Positions 556 through 49,530 of a stretch of 51,982 bases of DNA are shown piece by piece. Source of the DNA: Chiloscyllium plagiosum. Taxonomy: Eukaryota. Position numbers and translations under genes: made by a program. Where the stretch lies: positions 71,846,433-71,898,414 of the forward strand of contig NC_057718.1 of the NCBI RefSeq assembly GCF_004010195.1. The letters are read 5' to 3'. Below the pieces are notes generated by a model, which saw only the letters and a list, made by a program, of their open reading frames with translations, was not told where the DNA came from and did no database searches. How positions within the stretch are numbered: the first letter of the stretch is position 1; every line of letters starts with the position of its first letter.

Positions 556-684
556 TGAACTAACTCTACCGAAGCTGTTATCCCATCATGAAGTCACCTT
601 TCATAAACACGTGGAAAGTCCTTGATTCTGACACATCATCAGAGTCAGCATCCAAAATGTGAGAATCTGTGACACTCCTCTTAT
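556..684 (-). mobile_element. 3' half of a small Gypsy-type LTR (same family as 46056-46129)
   Basis: Reverse complement ends ...aaaggtgacttcatgatgggataacagcttcggtagagttagttca, aligning with aaagggtgacttggtgactcgggataccggcctctgtgcaattatttca at 46081-46129; it begins at ataagaggagtgtc. Confidence 0.65.
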
Positions 685-732
685 TTTTTTTCTCTCCCAC
701 ACTACCACCTAACTGCGGTAGTGCTTATATTT
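685..732 (-). mobile_element. Extreme 3' tail of the Tx1 element (stem-loop module plus A tail)
   Basis: Reverse complement taagcactaccgcagttaggtggtagtgtgggagagaaaaaaa matches the Tx1 tail module at ~41970, ~42055, ~43960 and ~45165. Confidence 0.8.
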
Positions 733-775
733 TGACAATCCTCTTTATTTTATCTGTGATGCAACTTTCAACGGA

Positions 776-9989: not shown

Positions 9990-11390
9990 TTCTTCAACGA
10001 GCAACACTGTGACTTTACAGTTTCCCACCTTACCACAGCTGAAAGACCTGAGGCCATTCATATCCTTTTCCACCCTCTTGGGCTTCTTTTTTCACCTGTG
10101 GTAGACAATTACCTGTGTGCCCTACTCTTTGTTTTGTTCAGTGGGATCTCCCTTCTCTCAATTTCTATCCCTCACAGGATGACTTGCTTGCCGGAAACTA
10201 AATTTTGCCTTATGCACCAATGCATATTCATCTGCCATCTCTGCTGCTCTTCTCAAATCTTGACCTTGCTGTTCATCCACATGAATTCTTATGATCTTGG
10301 GAAGTGAGTTTTTAAACTCCTCCAGCAGAATAATCTCTCTTAGAACCTCATATGTCTTGTCTATTTTTAAGGCCCGCAGCCATCTATCAAAATTGCTATG
10401 TTTAATTCTTTCGAACTGAACATAAGACTGACCTGGTTCCTTCTTTATGTTTCTGAGGCGCTGTCTATACTCTTCTGGTACCAATTCATAAACACTTAAA
10501 ATAACCTGTTTCACATTGGCATAATCTCTTGACACATCTGACAGCACTGCAAATACCTCACTAGCTCTGCCTCCCAGCTTAGTCTGAACTAGCATTACAC
10601 ACAAGTTTTCTGGCCATTCCATCTGCCTAGCCAATTTTTCAAAGGAATTAAAGAAGGCTTTGACATCTTTCTCATCAAAATGTGGCAATGTTTTAACATA
10701 TTTATATACATCACTATCTTCTCCCTTCATCTTCATCCTGTTAACTTGACATTCCTGACTAATTTGCAACTTCTGAAGTTCAAATTCTCTCTCTCTTTCT
10801 TCTCTCTCTGTTTCTCTTTGCTCAACTAAGAACCTTCCCTCCCTTTCATTATGACTAGATTAGATTACCTACAGTGCAGAAACAGGCCCTTCAGCCCAAC
10901 AAGTCCACACCGAGCCTCCGAAGAGTAACCCGCCCACCCCCATTTCCCTCTGACTAATGCACCTAGCATTACGGGCAATTTAGCATGGCCAATTCACCTG
11001 ACCTACACACATTTGGACTGTGGGAGGAAACCCACGCAGACATGGGGAAAATGTGTAAACTCCACACAGACAGTCACCCGAGGCTGGAATCGAACCTGGT
11101 GCTGTGAGGCAGCAGTGCTAACCACTGAGCCACCGTGCTGCCCATTTAACTCCAGTTGCCTCATTTGCAATTTAAGTTTTTCTAACTCAACTGCACTTAT
11201 CTGTTTCTCTGATACACCTAAGTGCTTGATCGACTCCATTAAAATTTTAACCTTACTTTTGTCCCTGGTTAAACCCAATTCTAACCTATTTGCTAATTCT
11301 AAAATCCTCTGCCTTCCTAAATTTTCTTGGCAAATTTGGGAAGCATCTTTAAACCCCAGAACCTCTTTAGCAATGTTAATAGCCATCTCA
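9990..11390 (-). pseudogene. Gmr1-type gag with SCAN-like capsid region and CCHC knuckle remnant
   Basis: LPHFDEKDVKAFFNSFEK, YELVPEEYRQRLR, LREIILLEEFKNSLP, AAEMADEY; CFSCGKVG-like remnant at ~10030-10050. Confidence 0.88.
10855..11141 (-). mobile_element. HE1-type SINE inside gag
   Basis: Reverse-complement SINE head, core and tail. Confidence 0.88.
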
Positions 11391-40815: not shown

Positions 40816-41449
40816 TTGCTGTAGTGATGGAACCCGGTTGGCCTCATTGGCTATGAGGTCACTGATTGGGGTTGTTAACCTGGGCCAATCAGGAAAGCCC
40901 TGGTGACTAAAGTATCCAGGAGATTACGTTAGGGCCGGGGTGTCCTTGGAGAAGGAGCACGCGGTGTCCACCAACACCCTGGAGTTGTTCAGGGAGAGGT
41001 GGGCGCCGCAGGGAGTGGAGTGCATCATTTCTCCCTCCAACTCTATTTTGATTTAGTCCCTACCCTCCCCCTCACTGTTTTTGATCACACAGCACTGTCC
41101 TTTGATGTGAAGGGCAGTGTTTGTCACTGGCCACCCGGGTGTTTTCCTATCTTCCTGGTGGTGGAATTTGAATAAAGATTCGTGCACTTTTGTGTCTTTC
41201 ACTGTGTCTCACACCTGCGCACACACACACACTGGGTGCTAAAAAAAAAAGAAAAAAAAGAGAAAAAAAAAGTATCCAGGAGAATACGTTAGGGCCGGGG
41301 TGTCCTTGGAGAAGGAGCACGCGGTGTTGACCAACACCCTGGCATTGTTCAGGGAGTGGTGGGCGCCGCAGTGAGTGGAGTGCATCATTTCTCCCTCCAA
41401 TTCTATTTTGATTTAGTCCCTACCCTCCCCTTCACTGTTTTGATCACAC

Positions 41450-41567
41450 NNNNNNNNNNNNNNNNNNNNNNNNNNNNNNNNNNNNNNNNNNNNNNNNNNN
41501 NNNNNNNNNNNNNNNNNNNNNNNNNNNNNNNNNNNNNNNNNNNNNNNNNNNNNNNNNNNNNNNNNNN
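41450..41567. other. Assembly gap (118 N)
   Basis: Run of n. Confidence 1.
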
Positions 41568-44062
41568 AAAATAAAGAAAAAAGGAAAAAAAAAATTAAAA
41601 AATGAAAATAAAAAAAGAAAGAAAAAAAAAAGTATCCAGGAGATTACGTTAGGGCCGGGGTGTCCTTGGAGAAGGAGCACGCGGTGTCTACCAACACCCT
41701 GGAGTTGTTCAGGGAGAGGTGGGCGCCGCGGGGAGCCGCAAGCATTATTTCTCCCTCCAACTCTATTTGGATTTAGTCCCTACCCTCCCCTTCACTGTTT
41801 TGATCACACAGCATTGCCCTTTGATGTGAAGGGCAATGTTTGTCACTGGCCACCCAGGTGTTTTCCTATCTTCCTGGTGGTGGAATTTGAATAAAGATTT
41901 GTGCACCTTGTGTCTCTCAACTGTGTCTCACACCTACACACACACACCATGGGTGCTGGGGAAAAATAAGCACTACCGCGGTTAGGCGGTAGTGTGGGGG
42001 TTAAATAAAAAAAAGAAAAAATAAACAGGAGAATTGGGTGGTGGGAAAAAAATAAGCACTACCGCAGTTAGGCGGTAGTGTGGGGGTTAAAAAAGAAGGG
42101 GGAAAAAAAAGGAAAAAAAAAAGAAAAGAAAAATAAATAAACAGGGGATCATCATTTCTCCCTCCAATTCAAAAAAAATAATAAAAAAAAATAAAAAAAA
42201 AAGTATCCAGGAGATTACGTTAGGGCCGGGGTGTCCTTGGAGAAGGAGCACGCGGTGTCGACCAACACCCTGGAGTTGTTCAGGGAGAGGTGGGCGCCGC
42301 AGGGAGTGGAGTGCATTATTTCCACCTCCAACTCTATTTTGATTTAGTCCCTACCCTCCCATTCACACTCACCGCAGTTAGTCGGTAGTGTGGGGGTTTA
42401 ATGAAAGAAAGAAAAAAAAATAATAAACAGGACTGTTGATCACAAAAAAAAGTATCCAGGAGATTACGTTAGGGCCAGGGTGTCCTTGGAGAAGGAGCAC
42501 GCGGTGTCTACCAACACCCTGGAGTTGTTCAGGGAGAGGTGGGCGCCGCGGGGAGTGGAGTGCATTATTTCCACCTCCAACTCTATTTTGATTTAGTCCC
42601 TACCCTCCCCTTTACTGTTTTGATCACACAGCACTGCCTTTGATGTGAAGGGCAGTGTGTGTCACTGGCCACTCGGGTGTTTTACTATCTTCCTGGTGGT
42701 GGAAATTGAATAAAGATTCGTGCACTTTGTGTCTTTCACTGTGTCTCACATGTATACACACACACCATGGGTGCTGGGGGAAAAATAAGCACTACCGCAC
42801 TAAAAAAAGAAAAAGAAAAAAATAAACAGAAGTGTCAGTCCCTACCCTCCCCTTTACTGTTTTGATCACACAGCACTGCCTTTGATGTGAAGGGCAGTGT
42901 TTGTCACTGGCCACCCGGGTGTTTTCCTATCTTCCTGGTGGTAGAATTTGAATAAAGATTCGTGCACTTTGTGTCTTTCACTGTGTCTCACACGAATACA
43001 CACACACTATGGGTGCTGGGGAAAAAAATAAGCACTACCGCACTTAGATGGTAGTGTGGGGGTTAAATTATATAAAAAAATAAACAGGAGTGTCATTTCC
43101 CCCTCCAAAACGATAAACAGAAATGTCAGTCCCTACACTAAAAAAAAAGTATCCAGGAGATGGGCTGGACGCTGCCGCAGGACGTAGCGAGCAGGGCAGC
43201 GGTAGACGTCCGGTACGTGGACACCGCTATCCGACGCCTTAAAACGGCGGTGCTTGGACCCGACGTAGTCCACCAGTTGGAGGACGCTCAGGTGTGCGGT
43301 GGGACCCCGTCCGCACTCACCCCAGCCCCGACGGAATTTCACATTGGCCCCAAGGTCCCGTACTTCCCCCGGGAGCCTGTGCCCCACAACCTGAGCCGCC
43401 TCCGGAATTTTAATTTTGTTACCTTCCAGGGGGTAAAAAGGCGGGCCCTGTATAGATTACTGCTGCACACCGTCCACCTCTTCTCCCTCATCCACCGTCC
43501 GGACGGTGGGAGGGCAGGTCTGAAGACCTCCTCGTGGGTCTGCTCCTGGGCCTGGCCAAACTGGCCATCAACAGGTCGAGGCAGTGGGCCGTGGAGGGGG
43601 TCGTTAGGGCCGACTGCCTGTCCCTCTTCCGCGGTTACGTTACAGCCTGGGTGTCCTTGGAGAAGGAGCACGCAGTGTCCACCAACACCCTGGAGTTGTT
43701 CAGGGAGAGGAGGGCGCCGCAGGGAGTGGAGTGCATCATTTCTCCCTCCAATTCTATTTTGATTTAGTCCCTACCTTCCCCCTCACTGTTTTGATCACAC
43801 AGCACTGCCCTTTGATGTGAAGGGCAGTGTTTGTCACTGGCCACCCGGGTGTTGTCCTATCTTCCCGGTGGTGGAAATTGAATAAAGATTCGTGCACTTT
43901 GTGTCTTTCACTGTGTCTTACTCGTGCACACACACACACCATGGGTGCTGGGGAAAAAATAAGCACTACCGCGGTTAGGCGGTAGTGTGGGGGTTAAAAA
44001 AAAGAGATAAACAGCAATGTTAAAGGCACAGCTAAAGAAAATTAAAAAAAAGTATCCAGGAG

Positions 44063-44980
44063 ATGGGCTGGACGCTGCCGCAGGACATAGCGAGCAGGGC
44101 AGCGGTAGACGTCCGGTACGTGGCCACCGCCATCCGACGCCTTAAAACGGCGGTGCTCGGACCTGACGTAGTGCACCAGTTGGAGGATGCTCAGGTGTGT
44201 GGTGGGATCCCATCCGCGCTCACCCCAGCCCGGACGGTATTTCACATTGCCCCCAAGGTCCCACCACAAGGAGCCAGTGCCCCACAACCTGAGCCGCCTC
44301 CGGAATTTTAATTTTGTTCCCTTCCAGGGGGTAAAAAGGAGGGCCCTATACAGACTGTTGCTGCACACCGTCCACCTCTTCTCCCTCACCCACCGTCTGG
44401 ACACGCCTTGGCGTGCCCATTTGCCACCGGGTGGTGGGGATCTCCAGTGGAGGGCTCTCTACGCGGGAGTCCTCCCCCTTTCTCTCGGGGACCTAGGGTG
44501 GAGGGTGCTGCACGCAGCAGTACCCTGCAACCGCAGATTGCGGTGGTTCACGGACTCCCAGCCCAACTGCTTGTTCTGTGGCGCTGTGGAGTCCGTGGAG
44601 CATGTATATATTGGGTGTGGGCGTTTGCACTCCCTTTTTGATTTTCTGTAAGACCTCCTCCTCTGCTTTTGGTTGCACTTCAGTCCCACGCTCTTGATCT
44701 TTGGGCACCTGGTACGGAGGAGGGAGGGCAGGTCTGAAGACCTCCTCGTGGGTCTGCTCCTGGGCCTGGCCAAACTGGCCATCAACAGGTGCCAGCAGCG
44801 GATGTGGAGGGGGTCGTTAGGGCCGACTGCCTGCCCCTTTTCCGCGGTTACGTTCGGGCCCGGGTGTCCTTGGAGAAGGAGCACGCTGTGTCCACCAACA
44901 CCCTGGAGTTGTTCAGGGAGAGGTGGGCACCGCAGGGAGTGGAGTGCATTATTTCCCCCTCCAACTCTATTTTGATTTAG
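44063..44980 (+). pseudogene. Tx1 ORF2 C-terminal region with CCHC zinc knuckle
   Basis: DLGWRVLHAAVPCN...CLFCGAVESVEHVYIGC; frameshifted, with a stop at ~44650. Confidence 0.92.
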
Positions 44981-45265
44981 TTCCTACCTTCACTGTTTGA
45001 TCACACAGCACTGCCCTTTGATGTGAAGGGCAGTGCTTGTCACTGGCCACCCGGGTGATTCCTATCTTCCTGGTGGTGGAAATTGAATAAAGATTCGTGC
45101 ACCTTGTGTCTCTCACTGTGTCTCACACCTACACACACACACCATGGGTGCTGGGGAAAAATAAGCACTACCACAGTTAGGCGGTAGTGTGAGGGTTAAT
45201 TAAAAAAAAGAAAGAAAAAAGTGTTTGATCACACAGCATTGAGAAAAAAAAAGTATCCAGGAGAT

Positions 45266-46055
45266 AGCCTGGGCAGGTACCAGGACAAGCTGTCCTAGAG
45301 GTGGTCGAAAAGTGTCAGAGCAGCCGAGAGCCAGAAGACGCGTAGGGGCGGGTTGAGTTCCAGAAGGCTTGTGGGCTACCCTGCACGCTGTCGTCCCAGG
45401 GAAGGGGACGGGCTGTCCTAGAGGTGGCCGGAAGGTGTGCCAGGATAGCCCACTGGCCGGATGGCGCATCGGGGTGGGTGAGAGCCCAATGGTACGTAAG
45501 GACAGACCGCGAGCCAGAAGGCGGGTAGCCATCCTCAGCACTGTCACCCTGGGCAGGTACCGAGGCGGGCTGCCCCAGAGGTGGTCGAAAGGTGCTGAGG
45601 GTGGTTAGTGAAGCCGGAAGATGGGTAGGCCGTCCTGACCGCTGTCACCCCGGGTGGATACTGGGGCGGGCTGTCCTAGAGGTGGTCAAAAGGTGAGTCA
45701 GGGCGGACCGAGAACTGGAAGGGGCATGGGGTGGTCCAAGAGCTGGAAGGTACGTAGGGGCGGGCTGCCTTAGAGTGGTGGGAAGGTGGGAGGGAAAGAG
45801 GCTTACTAGGTCTGTATTGTATGCACTTTTTTTATGTAATTGGATTGTCCTTTTATGTACAAATGTCACTGTCACTGTCTTTTATATGTGAAACTGGGAT
45901 TTGAGATTTGTCCTCCTCTCCCTGTAAACTGGTTGAACGGCAGGGTTTGGGGCCTAACTTTGCTGCTCCTCTCCATTGTAAAATTCCTGTTGTATACAGC
46001 TGTAAATGTTAACTATTTTTTGTAAACTGTTTTGTAATTTGTTTAATAAAATATT
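45266..46055 (+). mobile_element. 3' part of a second non-LTR family (GC-rich internal repeats, T-rich 3' end) at the same target
   Basis: Four ggctgtcctagaggtggtc-type repeats; homologous to minus-strand 50680-51200; ends aataaaatatt before gtaaccaggagatg. Confidence 0.7.
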
Positions 46056-46571
46056 GTAACCAGGAGATGCACAAGTTAATAAAGGGTGACTTGGTGACTC
46101 GGGATACCGGCCTCTGTGCAATTATTTCACAATCGTTGCACCACATACAACCGCACGCCAATGTGGTATTGTCACCTGTGAAAATTGGAGGGAGTGTTAA
46201 TTAAGAACTTGATGATTCATAGAAAATGGGTGAGGATCTGCTACTTTTCTAGCATAACTGAGGAGAAAAGTTACCTATGGCATCAATGTTCTTTCTGATT
46301 AAATTACAGTTTAACGCCAGGAGAAATCTGCATTTCAAGGATCAGCCATGAATAAAACAAATATATTTCAATGCTACAGAAGATCGATATTTCCTTGCCA
46401 GCATAAGGAATTTCAAAGATGTTTCTTTTCAACAAAAATAGTAGAATCCTCAACAGGAGTTGCAAAAGACATGATCAACTTATAAATTTTGAAATTAAAT
46501 AGCTGCTTGTTGCTTTGAGAGAAGGTAAACATTCTTTTAATTTTAGATCATAATTTGAAGGAATTTATAAA

Positions 46572-46620: not shown

Positions 46621-47729
46621 AATTGGATAATATGTATAATTAGGATGCTAGTACACTAAAAAAAATGAAGTGGCTTGCATTTTGTACACTCATTTTTACA
46701 GGGTAACAGTTATTGCAAATGTTGTATAACCAGGAGATGAGAACCTCCTCAGATCAGGAGACTTACTTTGAGCTGGCTGGCCACAGCCATCATACTGTGA
46801 GGAGGGAGAAGAAGAGGCATTTTGACATCTGGTTTTCTTTTTTGTTGTTTTTTTTTGTTTGTTTTTGGGTTTCTTTTTTTCTTTTACTGGGCTGTAATCG
46901 GGTGCACGAGCAGGTATTACCATCATTGCTGCTGCTATTGCTCCTGCTGCAGCCTTGGCCTTGCCTACAGCTGAACACTGTTGCTGGTGCCTGTGGCTCA
47001 TCTCAACTGCTGCACTGCCTGAGGCCTGCCTCCACCATGCTGTCTGGGCCCCATCCATACCTGGGACCTGTGCTGTTTGGTGCCTGGAGCCTGCCTCCAC
47101 TGCTACTGCCAGGGACTCACCCAGATTAAGGGGCTGTTGCTGCTGCCTGAGGCCCATTCCCAATGCTGCTACCCGGGGCCCCACCTGGACCTGCTTCTGC
47201 CATTGCTTCTTGGGGCCTACTTCCACTGCTGCTGCCTGGGACTTGCCTTGGGGCCCCTTGGACATGGGATCGCTGCCACTGCTACCTGGAGCCTGTATCC
47301 ACCATTGCTGCATGGGACTTGCCTCTGCCCCCTCCCGAGACCTCCACTGCTGCTACCTGAGGCCTGCCTCCACTGCTGCCTGGGACTTGCCTTGGGCCTC
47401 TACCAAGACCTAAGACCACCACCGCTGCCACCTGAAGCCTGCCTTTACCACTGCTGCCTGAGACTTGCCTCGGGTCTCTCCCGGACAAAAACTGCTGCCT
47501 GAGGCCTGCCTCCACTGCTGCTGCTGCCTGAGGCCCCACCTGGACTTAAGACTGTAGCTGTTTCCTGGGGCCTGCCTCCACCACTGCTGGTTGGGACCGT
47601 GCAACACCAGAGACTGTTGCTGCTGTTGCCTGAGCCATCCACAAGAACATCCAGCAGCACAGCATGGTGAGTCCCAAGACCGCAGGCCCCAGCTGCAACC
47701 CCGACCTCCTTCAGGCACCTGACTGAACA

Positions 47730-48005
47730 TCTGCGGGTTAAGGCCTATCCCTACCTCAATATGACTATTGAGGCCTGCAGTAAGACCATGGCTAGTGTGG
47801 TTAGTCCGCTGGCCATTGTCGCTGCAGCCGGAATGTACGGGAAGGCCGTATTTTTCCTGAAGACCGAGCAGGCAGTGCACCTAACCGTGCAGAAAGGGCT
47901 CACTGTGGGTGGGACTTTCCTCCCCGTCGACGTACTGGAGGTCACAGCCCAGAGAGTTGTGATTTCCAACATCCCGCCCTTCATTACCAATGAGCTCCTT
48001 CGAGT
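47730..48005 (+). pseudogene. Tx1 ORF1 N-terminal remnant
   Basis: ACSKTMASVVSPLAIVAAAGMYGKAVFFLKTE...GLTVGGTFLPV...RVVISNIPPFITNELL. Confidence 0.88.
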
Positions 48006-48079
48006 TTATCCTCCCTTATCCTCCCAGTAAATATATATAGTTTTAACTATATTGGTAGTGGTTGCACAATACTGCTGAC

Positions 48080-49195
48080 ATGAAGACTACTATAGCCAGC
48101 CTCAACATGAATGGCAGCAGGGAGTCGCAGCGCAAATTCCAGACCTTCTTGGTCCTTCAGGACAAGAAGTATGCAGTGTGCTTCCTGTAAGAAACCCACA
48201 CCATCCCGGGAGACAAAGCCATCTTGCTCCTGGAGTGGCAAGGATCTCACCTGCAGATCTGGCAGGCTGGCCATCTGTTGGTCCCACATTTTCAGCCAGA
48301 GATCTTGGGGGTCTGGGAGCCTGCGCCAGGCCGTTTGCTTCACCTGACGGTTCGGCTGGGGGGGTGGGGGGGGGGGCGCGGTGGGGCAGTGCTTCAATTT
48401 GTGAACGTCTCCGCTCCCATAATCAGGCCGAGGCAAAACCACGTCTTTGGAAAAGTGTCTGTTCATCTCGCCTCATTTGACGAAGGCCAGTGCGTTGCCC
48501 TCGGGGGAGATTTTAATTGCATCCTCGAGGACAGGGTCCACAGCAGGGCCCGGTCTGGTTTGGCATCAGGGAGGAGGTTGGGGGATTTGGTCAAGTCCTT
48601 TGACTTGGTGGACAGCTGGCGGAATCTCCATCCTGACTCCATCACATTCACCTTCGTGAGGCCTGGTGTCAGACCCTCCAGAATTGACCGCCTGTAACAT
48701 TTTGAGAGCCTATGCCATGTTCTTTCCAGCAGCCTCCATGCAGCAGGTGCTGTGCAAGGACCATCAGCTGGTGTGGGCAGAAGTCTTTCCGTTCAGCGCC
48801 CAAATCTGGTCTGCATACTGGCACTTTAACAACCTGCTTCTGGAAGACGAGCAGTTCTGGGACTCGTTTCGTCGGTTCTGGGCCGGCTGGAGGAATAAGT
48901 GGGGAAGCTTCCCGTCCCTGAGGCTATGGTGTGACTTGGATAAGGCTCGCATCCTCATTTTCTAACAGGAGTTCGCGAGGGGACCAACGAAGAGGTGGAA
49001 ATCAAGGATTGAGGAGTTGGAGAGGGAAGTGTTTGATCTGGAGTCACGTCTCGGTCAGCCCAATCTGGACCTGGTCCGCCGGGGGTGGGGGGGGGGTGGT
49101 TACGAAGCAAAGAAGGCTACGCTCTGGGACCTGCAGCTCGTCGGGTTCTTAAGTGAGGTCGCGGATCCAGCTCCTCCAGGATCTGGACCGTGGCA
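48080..49195 (+). pseudogene. Tx1 ORF2 APE endonuclease remnant
   Basis: MKTTIASLNMNG, CFL*ETH, LGGDFNC, LVDSWRNLHP, SRIDRL, DHQLV, YWHFNNLLLED. Confidence 0.92.
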
Positions 49196-49530
49196 ATCAA
49201 AGGACCTGTTGCTCAGGTCTTTCCTTGGGTTAGTGAATTATTACAGTAAATTCATACATAACCTGGCCTCCATCTTGGCACCCCTACATTGACAAAGGGT
49301 AAGCCTTGGAAATGCTCACATAGCCAAGAAGTAGCCTTCAGGGAAGTAAAAAAGCAGATTTTGTTATATAAGGTGTTGACCCACTACAATCCAAAGTGAA
49401 AGGTAGTGGAGACATGCAAAGCCTCCTCATATAGTATTGCAGTGGTGTTGGCTCACCAGTGGGCCAATGGAGAGGAACAACCAATAGTATATGCTTCCCG
49501 GACTTTCGCTGGTCCCAAACGTAAAATATG
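49196..49530 (+). pseudogene. Gypsy pol fragment (RT connection / RNase H)
   Basis: LRSFLGLVNYYSKFIHNLASILAPLH; CKASSYSIAVVLAH...EQPIVYASRT. Confidence 0.9.

What the first reader, a model, noticed from the sequence alone, without database searches (positions are those of the whole stretch)
42015..44045. Tails carry variant target sites from other loci: a serial record of earlier insertion sites
Seen: after A runs there are target variants unlike the local one: ataaacaggagaat (42021), ataaacaggggatc (42137), ataaacaggactg (42423), ataaacagaagtgtcag (42822), ataaacaggagtgtca (43080), ataaacagaaatgtcag (43113) and ataaacagcaatgtt (44007). Most are followed by a short piece of another Tx1 unit and then a new A run, 16-29 nt after the AATAAA/GATAAA in five cases. 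Inference: fusing the A tail to the LTR's ATAAA creates a poly(A) signal, so read-through transcripts capture the donor TSD plus the start of the next stacked element. Repeated rounds append an ordered pedigree of donor loci and show that donors also sat in tandem arrays.
Basis: partly seen in the sequence, partly recalled or inferred. Interest (0 to 1): 0.8.

Follow-up and report, generated by a model that had tools for sequence, protein, structure and literature searches.

The report
LINE tails record earlier landing sites
A jumping gene that piles up at one spot in another element's promoter carries, behind its tails, short pieces of spots elsewhere in the genome that are likely its earlier landing sites, so many copies hold a partial travel log; the AATAAA signal proposed to create the log does not predict where the pieces end.

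Summary
The seven foreign target variants are at the stated places (7 in the array, 0 in the other 46.6 kb). The locus is a solo LTR split at its TATA-like box by a stack of Tx1-like LINE stubs. Six of seven appendages recur on other contigs with different lengths. Such appendages occur in about 60% of sampled loci, also at non-LTR sites, so they are neither consensus 3' UTR nor likely assembly chimeras. Two donor-to-progeny pairs were found: C24 to C14, through the window's 42137 appendage, and C34 to C11 (907 bp, 99.2%). Both donors are truncated stubs. The window's own seven donors were not found. Serial 3' read-through is therefore supported. The AATAAA mechanism is not: appendages end mostly 4-32 nt after any A run, and AATAAA adds nothing (14/52 vs 16/51; hold-out 7/24 vs 19/27). 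The log is only partly ordered. An added result: stacked units share their neighbour's exact 5' junction (25% vs 1.3% of pairs). The scan had already noted the LTR targeting on other DNA of this genome; my look-ups showed no note on the appendages. No reads were seen.

The parts
40820..40909 (+). 5' part of a solo LTR-like repeat (starts TG, CCAAT-like boxes), ends at the target
   Evidence: 1159 first-look candidates; other copies continue through a TATA-like box into the LTR 3' part
40910..40924 (+). local target-site copy 1 of 8 (others at 41270, 41630, 42201, 42450, 43147, 44050, 45251); a ninth, one letter different, at 46056-46068
40925..41240 (+). U1, 5'-truncated family A stub, cut short and A-tailed before the 3' stem-loop
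41285..41449 (+). U2, same 5' junction as U1, runs into the gap 41450-41567
41645..42002 (+). U3, same 5' junction, natural 3' end
42021..42088 (+). appendage A1: foreign target plus a 54-nt unit to the natural end; like junctions in L036, L038, L092, L192, L273, L277
42137..42170 (+). appendage A2: foreign target plus element piece; also on C7, C14, C15, C24
42216..42398 (+). U4, same 5' junction, internal jump at about 42366 to a short 3' end whose tail is shared with C9:17.6M, C11, C12, C34
42423..42443 (+). appendage A3; 6 matches in the genome, window included
42465..42801 (+). U5, same 5' junction, cut inside the stem-loop
42822..43064 (+). appendage A4: foreign target D plus unit U5b to the natural end
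43080..43106 (+). appendage A5, nested on U5b; only match in the genome at 0 mismatches
43113..43139 (+). appendage A6: second copy of target D with the same junction
43162..43995 (+). U6, shares its 5' junction with U7, internal deletion
43963..43986 (+). 3' stem-loop of family A (9-bp stem, 6-nt loop, predicted -18.5 kcal/mol for the 41-nt end)
44007..44033 (+). appendage A7: foreign target plus the first bases of what, in longer carriers, runs into the 5' leader of full-length elements; 8 matches at up to 1 mismatch
44065..45197 (+). U7, longest family A stub (end of ORF2, weak zf-RVT match E 3.2e-05, below the curated cut-off)
45266..46055 (+). 5'-truncated unit of a second family (B) at the same target
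46069..46129 (+). 3' part of the LTR-like repeat (ends CA); the middle part seen in other copies is missing

Best explanation
The appendages are target-site copies and neighbouring sequence that also stand at other loci of this genome, likely carried here by repeated 3' read-through (serial 3' transduction) of a Tx1-like LINE that stacks head to tail at an LTR's TATA-like box. Steps. (1) Shown: family A and a second family B insert at the LTR target and stack there between target copies. (2) Inferred: RNA runs through a unit's old A tail, the next target copy and on into the next unit or the flank. (3) Shown as a distribution: it ends mostly 4-32 nt past the old A run whether or not AATAAA is there. 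Inferred: the A-rich run itself, as a weak non-canonical signal or as a protein-bound barrier to 3' trimming, sets the end, which is then re-adenylated. (4) Inferred: target-primed reverse transcription from the new tail copies the donor's target and piece to a new site; each round can add one more. (5) Shown: new units take the exact 5' junction of a stacked neighbour. Inferred: the cDNA anneals to that neighbour, so its first tens of bases are copied with the target. (6) Inferred: truncated stubs are donors in trans, transcribed from the LTR promoter or from host read-through. The log is nested but lossy, because priming at an inner A run would erase entries, and template jumps or insertion into a carried target would reorder them.
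For: At least 4067 exact 3'-end motifs in the genome. Foreign target-like segments in 48 of 85 and 47 of 75 regions with arrays (automated, some misclassed). LTR-type target pieces inside insertions bounded by unrelated non-LTR target duplications: L128, L143, L092, L094. Donor pair 1: C24 has target aagaacaggaatgtc at its 5' LTR junction and 3' end; C14, whose own target differs, holds C24's upstream unit, tail, A2, C24's target and junction, with 3 mismatches over the about 160 nt from the stem-loop to the middle of the next unit. Donor pair 2: 907 bp at 99.2% from C34 inside a C11 unit, in the order A7, A run, C34 target, C34 flank. Same junction with different ends: A7 22-119 nt in 10 loci, A3 10-121 nt in 7, D 22-247 nt in 10 copies. 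Short ends: 51 of 77 (one search lists) and 37 of 51 premature ends up to 125 nt fall at 4-32 nt, against about 24% if uniform. Junction inheritance: same 5' start in 162 of 659 within-array pairs vs 531 of 41,772 between, 114 of 691 vs 874 of 38,630 in the hold-out; mismatch rises from 2.0% to 6.4% with distance from the junction against a flat 7% in controls; U1-U4 share a G found in 1 of 49 other copies. No leader or long ORF2 sequence at the C24 (3 kb) or C34 (6 kb) donors.
Against: No reads or RNA were seen, so read-through, the cleavage step and LTR-driven transcription are untested. No donor was found for A1-A7: the pattern matches all follow A runs, and LTRs with an A7-like target are empty or have other junctions. 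In C14 the unit after C24's target differs at 3 of 100 nt and has a different tail, so an intermediate or another allele is needed. The C34 piece in C11 ends in a direct join to a family B stub with no A tail, which is a template jump or DNA copying rather than plain transduction. After removing duplicates, a window chosen after the fact (19-32 nt) favoured AATAAA in the first set (12 of 33 vs 3 of 29, p=0.02); it reversed in the hold-out (6 of 24 vs 16 of 27). A runs in the sampled DNA are rare above 10 nt, so tail decay may have changed some junction hexamers. The hold-out regions were picked by similarity searches and not at random.
Confidence: 0.8

Rival explanations
1. One reading: A tail plus the target's ATAAA forms AATAAA, and canonical cleavage 15-30 nt downstream makes each appendage.
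For: All five cut appendages named in the finding end 16-29 nt after AATAAA or GATAAA. Post hoc 19-32 nt excess in set 1.
Against: No excess in the 10-30 nt window; reversed in the hold-out. AATAAA is no commoner at carried than at local junctions (57 of 146 vs 30 of 89, p=0.49). 12 of 52 AATAAA appendages end under 10 nt away. The element's own internal AATAAA gives no peak (rate ratio 1.17, p=0.66). A8 has none.
Confidence: 0.1
2. Template jumping: the reverse transcriptase copies an A run from one RNA, then jumps to the untailed 3' end of a read-through fragment, or jumps between A runs, so the pieces are shuffled among RNAs and their order is not a pedigree.
For: C11 joins the C34 read-through piece directly to a family B stub. 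The same appendage follows unrelated tails. A1, A3 and A7 are one cassette elsewhere but separate in the window. U4 has an internal jump. Fusions to extra templates are reported for R2 (PMC11371274, passages).
Against: Unit, tail, A2 and the next target are co-inherited from C24 to C14. A2 keeps the same end in separate loci (24 nt twice, 29 nt three times). It still needs read-through RNA holding donor targets.
Confidence: 0.25
3. DNA-level events (unequal crossing-over, tandem duplication, gene conversion between loci) built the stacks and moved the pieces.
For: Same-junction neighbours are more alike than random copies near the junction. Some loci show near-identical repeated blocks (L141). 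The 907-bp copy has no A tail.
Against: Similarity decays with distance from the junction and tails differ between neighbours. U6 and U7 share a junction but are about 86-88% identical. Carried pieces are sense, start at a target and end in new A runs at varied points, inside target-bounded units at non-homologous sites.
Confidence: 0.07
4. Assembly chimeras from short reads in A-rich repeats, or fixed parts of the consensus 3' UTR.
For: 101,977 contigs; a gap at 41450-41567; no read check was possible.
Against: The same junctions recur on separate contigs with small differences and different ends. Single insertions with clean duplications at unique sites carry them. Natural ends are followed by many different sequences, so no fixed UTR part.
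Confidence: 0.04

Closest known systems
Human L1 3' transduction lineages (AC002980, LRE3, RP); PMC4866827, passages read; PMC10883270, passages read
   Same: Read-through carries donor flank between two A tails and marks families of related copies; used to trace source elements.
   Different: About 15% of L1 insertions carry a transduction (PMC10883270) against about 60% of loci here. Here the carried piece is the element's own target plus the next stacked unit, two or more often stack, the two donors found are truncated stubs, and AATAAA does not set the end.
Crocodilian Tx1-8_Crp and Tx1-4_AMi (LTR-preferring Tx1) and tandem SINEU-3; Kojima 2015, PMC4494074, passages and section 15 read
   Same: Tx1-clade elements that prefer one site in another transposon, LTR retrotransposons included; sequential tandem insertions with a target copy between them.
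   Different: The passages read do not describe foreign target copies in tails, shared 5' junctions or donor stubs. Supplementary figures S3-S4 were not seen and may show such junctions.
Drosophila HeT-A tags; bioRxiv 10.1101/782904, passages read
   Same: Head-to-tail non-LTR arrays in which a transcript takes short sequence from a neighbour and leaves a record of it.
   Different: HeT-A tags are at the 5' end and come from the upstream neighbour's promoter; these are at the 3' end, hold a target duplication and move between chromosome-internal loci.
R2 'anneal' 5' junctions; PMC11371274, passages read
   Same: The cDNA 3' end anneals to homologous sequence at the target and gives a seamless, repeatable 5' junction.
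   Different: R2 anneals to upstream rDNA and has another endonuclease type; here the homology would be to the previously inserted unit downstream of the target.

Membership tests
Tx1 clade of non-LTR retrotransposons | ORF2 with APE endonuclease, RT and C-terminal zinc-binding region, closest to Tx1-type proteins | tested here: met
   An ORF2 piece of a family copy (L186) matches fish proteins with PF03372+PF00078+PF13966 at 36-50% identity; a member of one matched cluster is named 'transposon TX1 uncharacterized 149 kDa protein'. The window's own piece has a weak zf-RVT match.
Tx1 clade of non-LTR retrotransposons | Placement in the Tx1 clade by RT phylogeny | not tested
   No named Tx1 reference set was fetched; no tree was built.
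Tx1 clade of non-LTR retrotransposons | ORF1 with a CCHC zinc knuckle upstream of ORF2 | tested here: inconclusive
   L188 has an ORF1-like frame with a CX2CX4HX4C motif read from the sequence; Pfam gave no match; the frame is broken and a gap follows.
Tx1 clade of non-LTR retrotransposons | Target preference with short target duplications, 5' truncation and A-rich 3' end | tested here: met
   13 of 30 LTR target sites had an insert at the site; 26 of 55 arrays with a called duplication were at LTR sites (noisy), so it is a preference and not strict.
3' transduction (L1 type) | Donor's downstream sequence between two A tails inside the progeny's target duplication | tested here: met
   C24 to C14; LTR flank pieces between A runs in L131, L136, L168, L171, L173.
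3' transduction (L1 type) | Identifiable source locus | tested here: met
   Met for two other loci; not met for A1-A7 of the window; only a candidate for A8.
3' transduction (L1 type) | End set by a downstream canonical poly(A) signal (recalled feature) | tested here: not met
   So it works like L1 transduction but its end is set otherwise.
3' transduction (L1 type) | Read-through RNA exists | not tested
   No sequencing reads were seen here.
Gypsy LTR (the target) | LTR linked to a Gypsy gag-pol interior | not tested
   Only TG...CA ends, CCAAT and TATA-like boxes and an initiator-like motif at +29/+30 in 7 of 10 listed sites (one family, not independent; one of the 10 held an insert). 'Gypsy' comes from earlier scan notes.
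TENT4 mixed tailing | Untemplated G-rich interruptions added at RNA level | tested here: inconclusive
   New tails are 7.4% G, 5.8% T, 1.5% C, but A runs peak at 9 nt and are rare above 10 outside arrays too, so decay after insertion explains this as well.

The most novel reading that the evidence does not exclude
A self-seeding retrotransposon array system: LINE stubs borrow the LTR promoter, export whole stack segments that include fresh copies of their own target, those carried targets are hit again at the new site, and incoming copies dock by homology on the previous stub, helped by a piece of 3' UTR fixed at the 5' end of full-length masters. The result is a natural lineage tape over thousands of loci from which a locus-level family tree could be read.
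Probability: 0.35. Interest if true: 0.75.

Novelty: new variant of a known kind. Interest (0 to 1): 0.52.

Why it matters
Which copies of a LINE family are the sources, and whether truncated copies can be sources, is hard to see in most genomes. Here over half of the sampled loci carry donor tags, so a source-to-progeny network can be built from one assembly. The shared 5' junctions, with their mismatch gradient, give a natural read-out of how the 5' end is joined. The hexamer-independent ends point to a 3'-end pathway other than canonical polyadenylation. The parts (3' transduction, LTR-targeting Tx1, tandem stacking) are in print; this combination was not found in nine literature searches, which miss most subscription journals and Repbase Reports.

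Tried and rejected
Donor searches: A7, A5, D, A3, A2 found carriers but no locus with the junction directly at a 5' LTR; A1 was checked only in fetched loci. A8 gave one candidate, C13, but 17 of the 25 matching letters are element sequence and no unit stands upstream there. The local target was not seen after an A run in any locus fetched up. A 243-nt unique piece in L175 matched C20 and C99779 at 99% with no element within the 10 kb fetched on one side: a trans-copied host RNA piece, not a transduction. The AATAAA idea, which I first found attractive (same ATAAA as TATA box upstream and signal downstream), failed four tests; the 19-32 nt excess did not replicate. TENT4-type mixed tailing is not needed. 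Automated local/foreign calls are noisy: segments of L137, L005, L003, L010 and L013 were partly misclassed; one search dropped L137, L005, L003 and L013, lengths above 125 nt and duplicates; often took a junction-bearing string as the duplication. The middle of the outputs was cut from view (L147-L166 not read by eye). Szak 2003 and Macfarlane 2013 were not held; nothing of them was read. Pfam found nothing in three of four ORF pieces.

Full report
Setting. The window is G000:C9:71846433-71898414 of a 3.56-Gb assembly in 101,977 contigs. Earlier scan notes call it a shark; I did not test that. A short LTR-like repeat starts at 40820 and ends at 46129. It is split at its TATA-like box by a stack: eight copies of the local target (40910 to 45251) separate units U1-U7 of family A and one unit of family B, and a ninth copy with one change closes the stack at 46056. 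Family A is Tx1-like by protein similarity; no tree was built. Its 3' end is a predicted stem-loop followed by GTGGGGGTT and an A run. An exact 21-nt end motif occurs 4067 times.

Observation. All seven motifs are at the stated places and none is elsewhere in the window. Five are followed by a short piece and a new A run 16-29 nt after the hexamer; two lead into units with natural ends. An eighth appendage without AATAAA lies at 45221-45241, and U1 and U5 are cut short with no appendage.

Foreign and mobile. A7 has 8 matches, D (A4 and A6) 10, A3 6, A2 5, A5 1, the window included; A1-like junctions stood in 6 other fetched loci. The same junction ends at different points in different loci. 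In 60 position-ordered regions of C1 plus 27 best-hit loci, 48 of the 85 with arrays had a foreign segment; in 129 further regions, 47 of the 75 with arrays did. These calls are automated and include errors. Clear hand-read cases include single insertions at non-LTR sites whose tails hold LTR-type targets (L128, L143; L092, L094) and tails that hold target plus LTR flank (L131, L136, L168, L171, L173). This rules out a fixed 3' UTR and makes local assembly collapse unlikely. No reads were seen.

Donors. C24 (L241) has its own target at the 5' LTR junction and at the 3' end. One of its units carries A2, then an A run, then that target and junction. C14 (L240), with another target, holds the same unit, tail, A2, C24's target and junction: a nested record W, then C24, then C14. 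The unit after it differs at 3 of 100 nt and has another tail, so another allele or an intermediate is needed. C34 (L094) carries A3 and A7 before its own non-LTR target; C11 (L091) holds 907 bp at 99.2% that start in A7 and run through C34's target and flank, ending in a direct join to a family B stub. Neither donor shows a leader or long ORF2 sequence in the stretch fetched, so truncated stubs are likely donors in trans. Donors for A1-A7 themselves were not found; C13 is a weak candidate for A8.

The poly(A) signal. In set 1, 14 of 52 premature appendages after AATAAA and 16 of 51 after no signal end at 10-30 nt (p=0.67). Permuting lengths among 79 short appendages gave 23.6 expected against 22 observed, and 36 of the 79 have no AATAAA within 30 nt. 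The element's internal AATAAA gives 7 of 48 ends in its window, rate ratio 1.17. AATAAA is no commoner at carried junctions. A post hoc 19-32 nt window favoured AATAAA (12 of 33 vs 3 of 29), so I tested it on new loci, where it reversed (6 of 24 vs 16 of 27; for 10-30 nt, 7 of 24 vs 19 of 27). What does hold is that ends crowd just after the old A run: 51 of 77 and 37 of 51 ends up to 125 nt lie at 4-32 nt. From recall, A-rich stretches can act as weak signals and poly(A)-binding protein covers about 27 nt; either would fit, and neither was tested. New tails are short (median 16.5 nt) and interrupted, but long A runs are rare throughout the sampled DNA, so this says little on the enzyme.

Order of the record. 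It is nested in the two traced cases, but not a clean pedigree. A1, A3 and A7 form one cassette at C11, C12 and C34 and are spread over U3, U4 and U6 here. A4 and A6 bracket U5b and A5, which fits one donor stack or a later insertion into a carried target. D occurs with two sequence types of the element at a truncation hot spot, so it may have arisen more than once.

Shared 5' junctions. U1-U5 start at one base and U6-U7 at another, with different tails; U6 and U7 are only about 86-88% identical. Across loci 162 of 659 within-array pairs share the start against 531 of 41,772 between arrays, repeated at 114 of 691 against 874 of 38,630. Mismatch between such neighbours climbs from 2.0% in the first 10 nt to 6.4% at 161-320 nt, with controls at 6.7-7.6% (BLAST starts may take in a few target bases). 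U1-U4 share a base seen in 1 of 49 other copies. I infer that the cDNA anneals to the neighbour downstream of the nick so that its head is copied with the target, like the anneal junctions of R2 (PMC11371274, passages). Full-length copies start with an LTR-like leader, mostly behind a piece of their own 3' UTR, and an initiator-like motif lies 29-30 nt after the TATA-like box in 7 of 10 listed sites; promoter borrowing is a hypothesis.

Known relatives. L1 transduction lineages (PMC4866827 and PMC10883270, passages), LTR-preferring crocodilian Tx1 and tandem SINEU-3 (PMC4494074, passages and section 15; supplements not seen), HeT-A tags (10.1101/782904, passages). Eight earlier scan notes report the LTR targeting on other DNA of this genome; two further look-ups showed none on the appendages (8 of 54 fits listed in 69). 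Nine literature searches (listings only unless named above) did not show this combination.

Verdict. The feature is real and genome-wide. Serial read-through capture of donor targets is supported (0.8); the AATAAA step is not (0.1). New variant of a known kind; interest 0.52.

Noticed in passing
L188:6610-8000 (G000:C1:54.12M) and 19 other contexts: Full-length family A begins with a leader that resembles the LTR sequence just past the target. In 16 of 20 leader contexts a copy of the element's own 3' UTR (ending near position 996-1004 of U7) precedes the leader, with varied left ends that in several cases equal the local neighbour's junction; in 4 of 20 the leader follows the target through LTR-like sequence. 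It looks like a built-in docking repeat.
   Followed up: partly
window 45266-46055: A second family (B, 1290 first-look candidates) uses the same target, has AATAAA near its own end, often joins the target with no A tail, and sometimes carries a short ATAAACAGG appendage.
   Followed up: partly
window 46720-49300: An older, 73-82% identical relative of family A (5' leader, ORF1, part of ORF2) follows a second target-like LTR fragment at about 46727.
   Followed up: partly
window 670-733, minus strand: A short orphan family A 3' end with an A run and a target-like piece.
   Followed up: no
L175:3625-3875 (G000:C1:10.43M): A 243-nt host sequence, 99% identical to C20:3.41M and C99779, sits behind a foreign target inside a stack: host RNA is also copied to these targets and carried on.
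   Followed up: partly
L241 (G000:C24:35.25M); L169: A target unlike the one at the 5' LTR junction is repeated three or more times inside one stack with one junction: either a carried donor stack or re-use of a carried target.
   Followed up: no
L093:1670-2510: Part of an array is inverted.
   Followed up: no
window 10158-10859, minus strand: Open frame with a SCAN domain, E 2.1e-10.
   Followed up: no
sampled C1 regions: A runs peak at 9 nt in arrays and are rare above 10-11 nt in and outside arrays.
   Followed up: partly
L246 (G000:C35:20.37M): A 5' truncation lies 5 nt from that of U6/U7 at an unrelated LTR site; position 923 starts units in 16 arrays: truncation hot spots.
   Followed up: no
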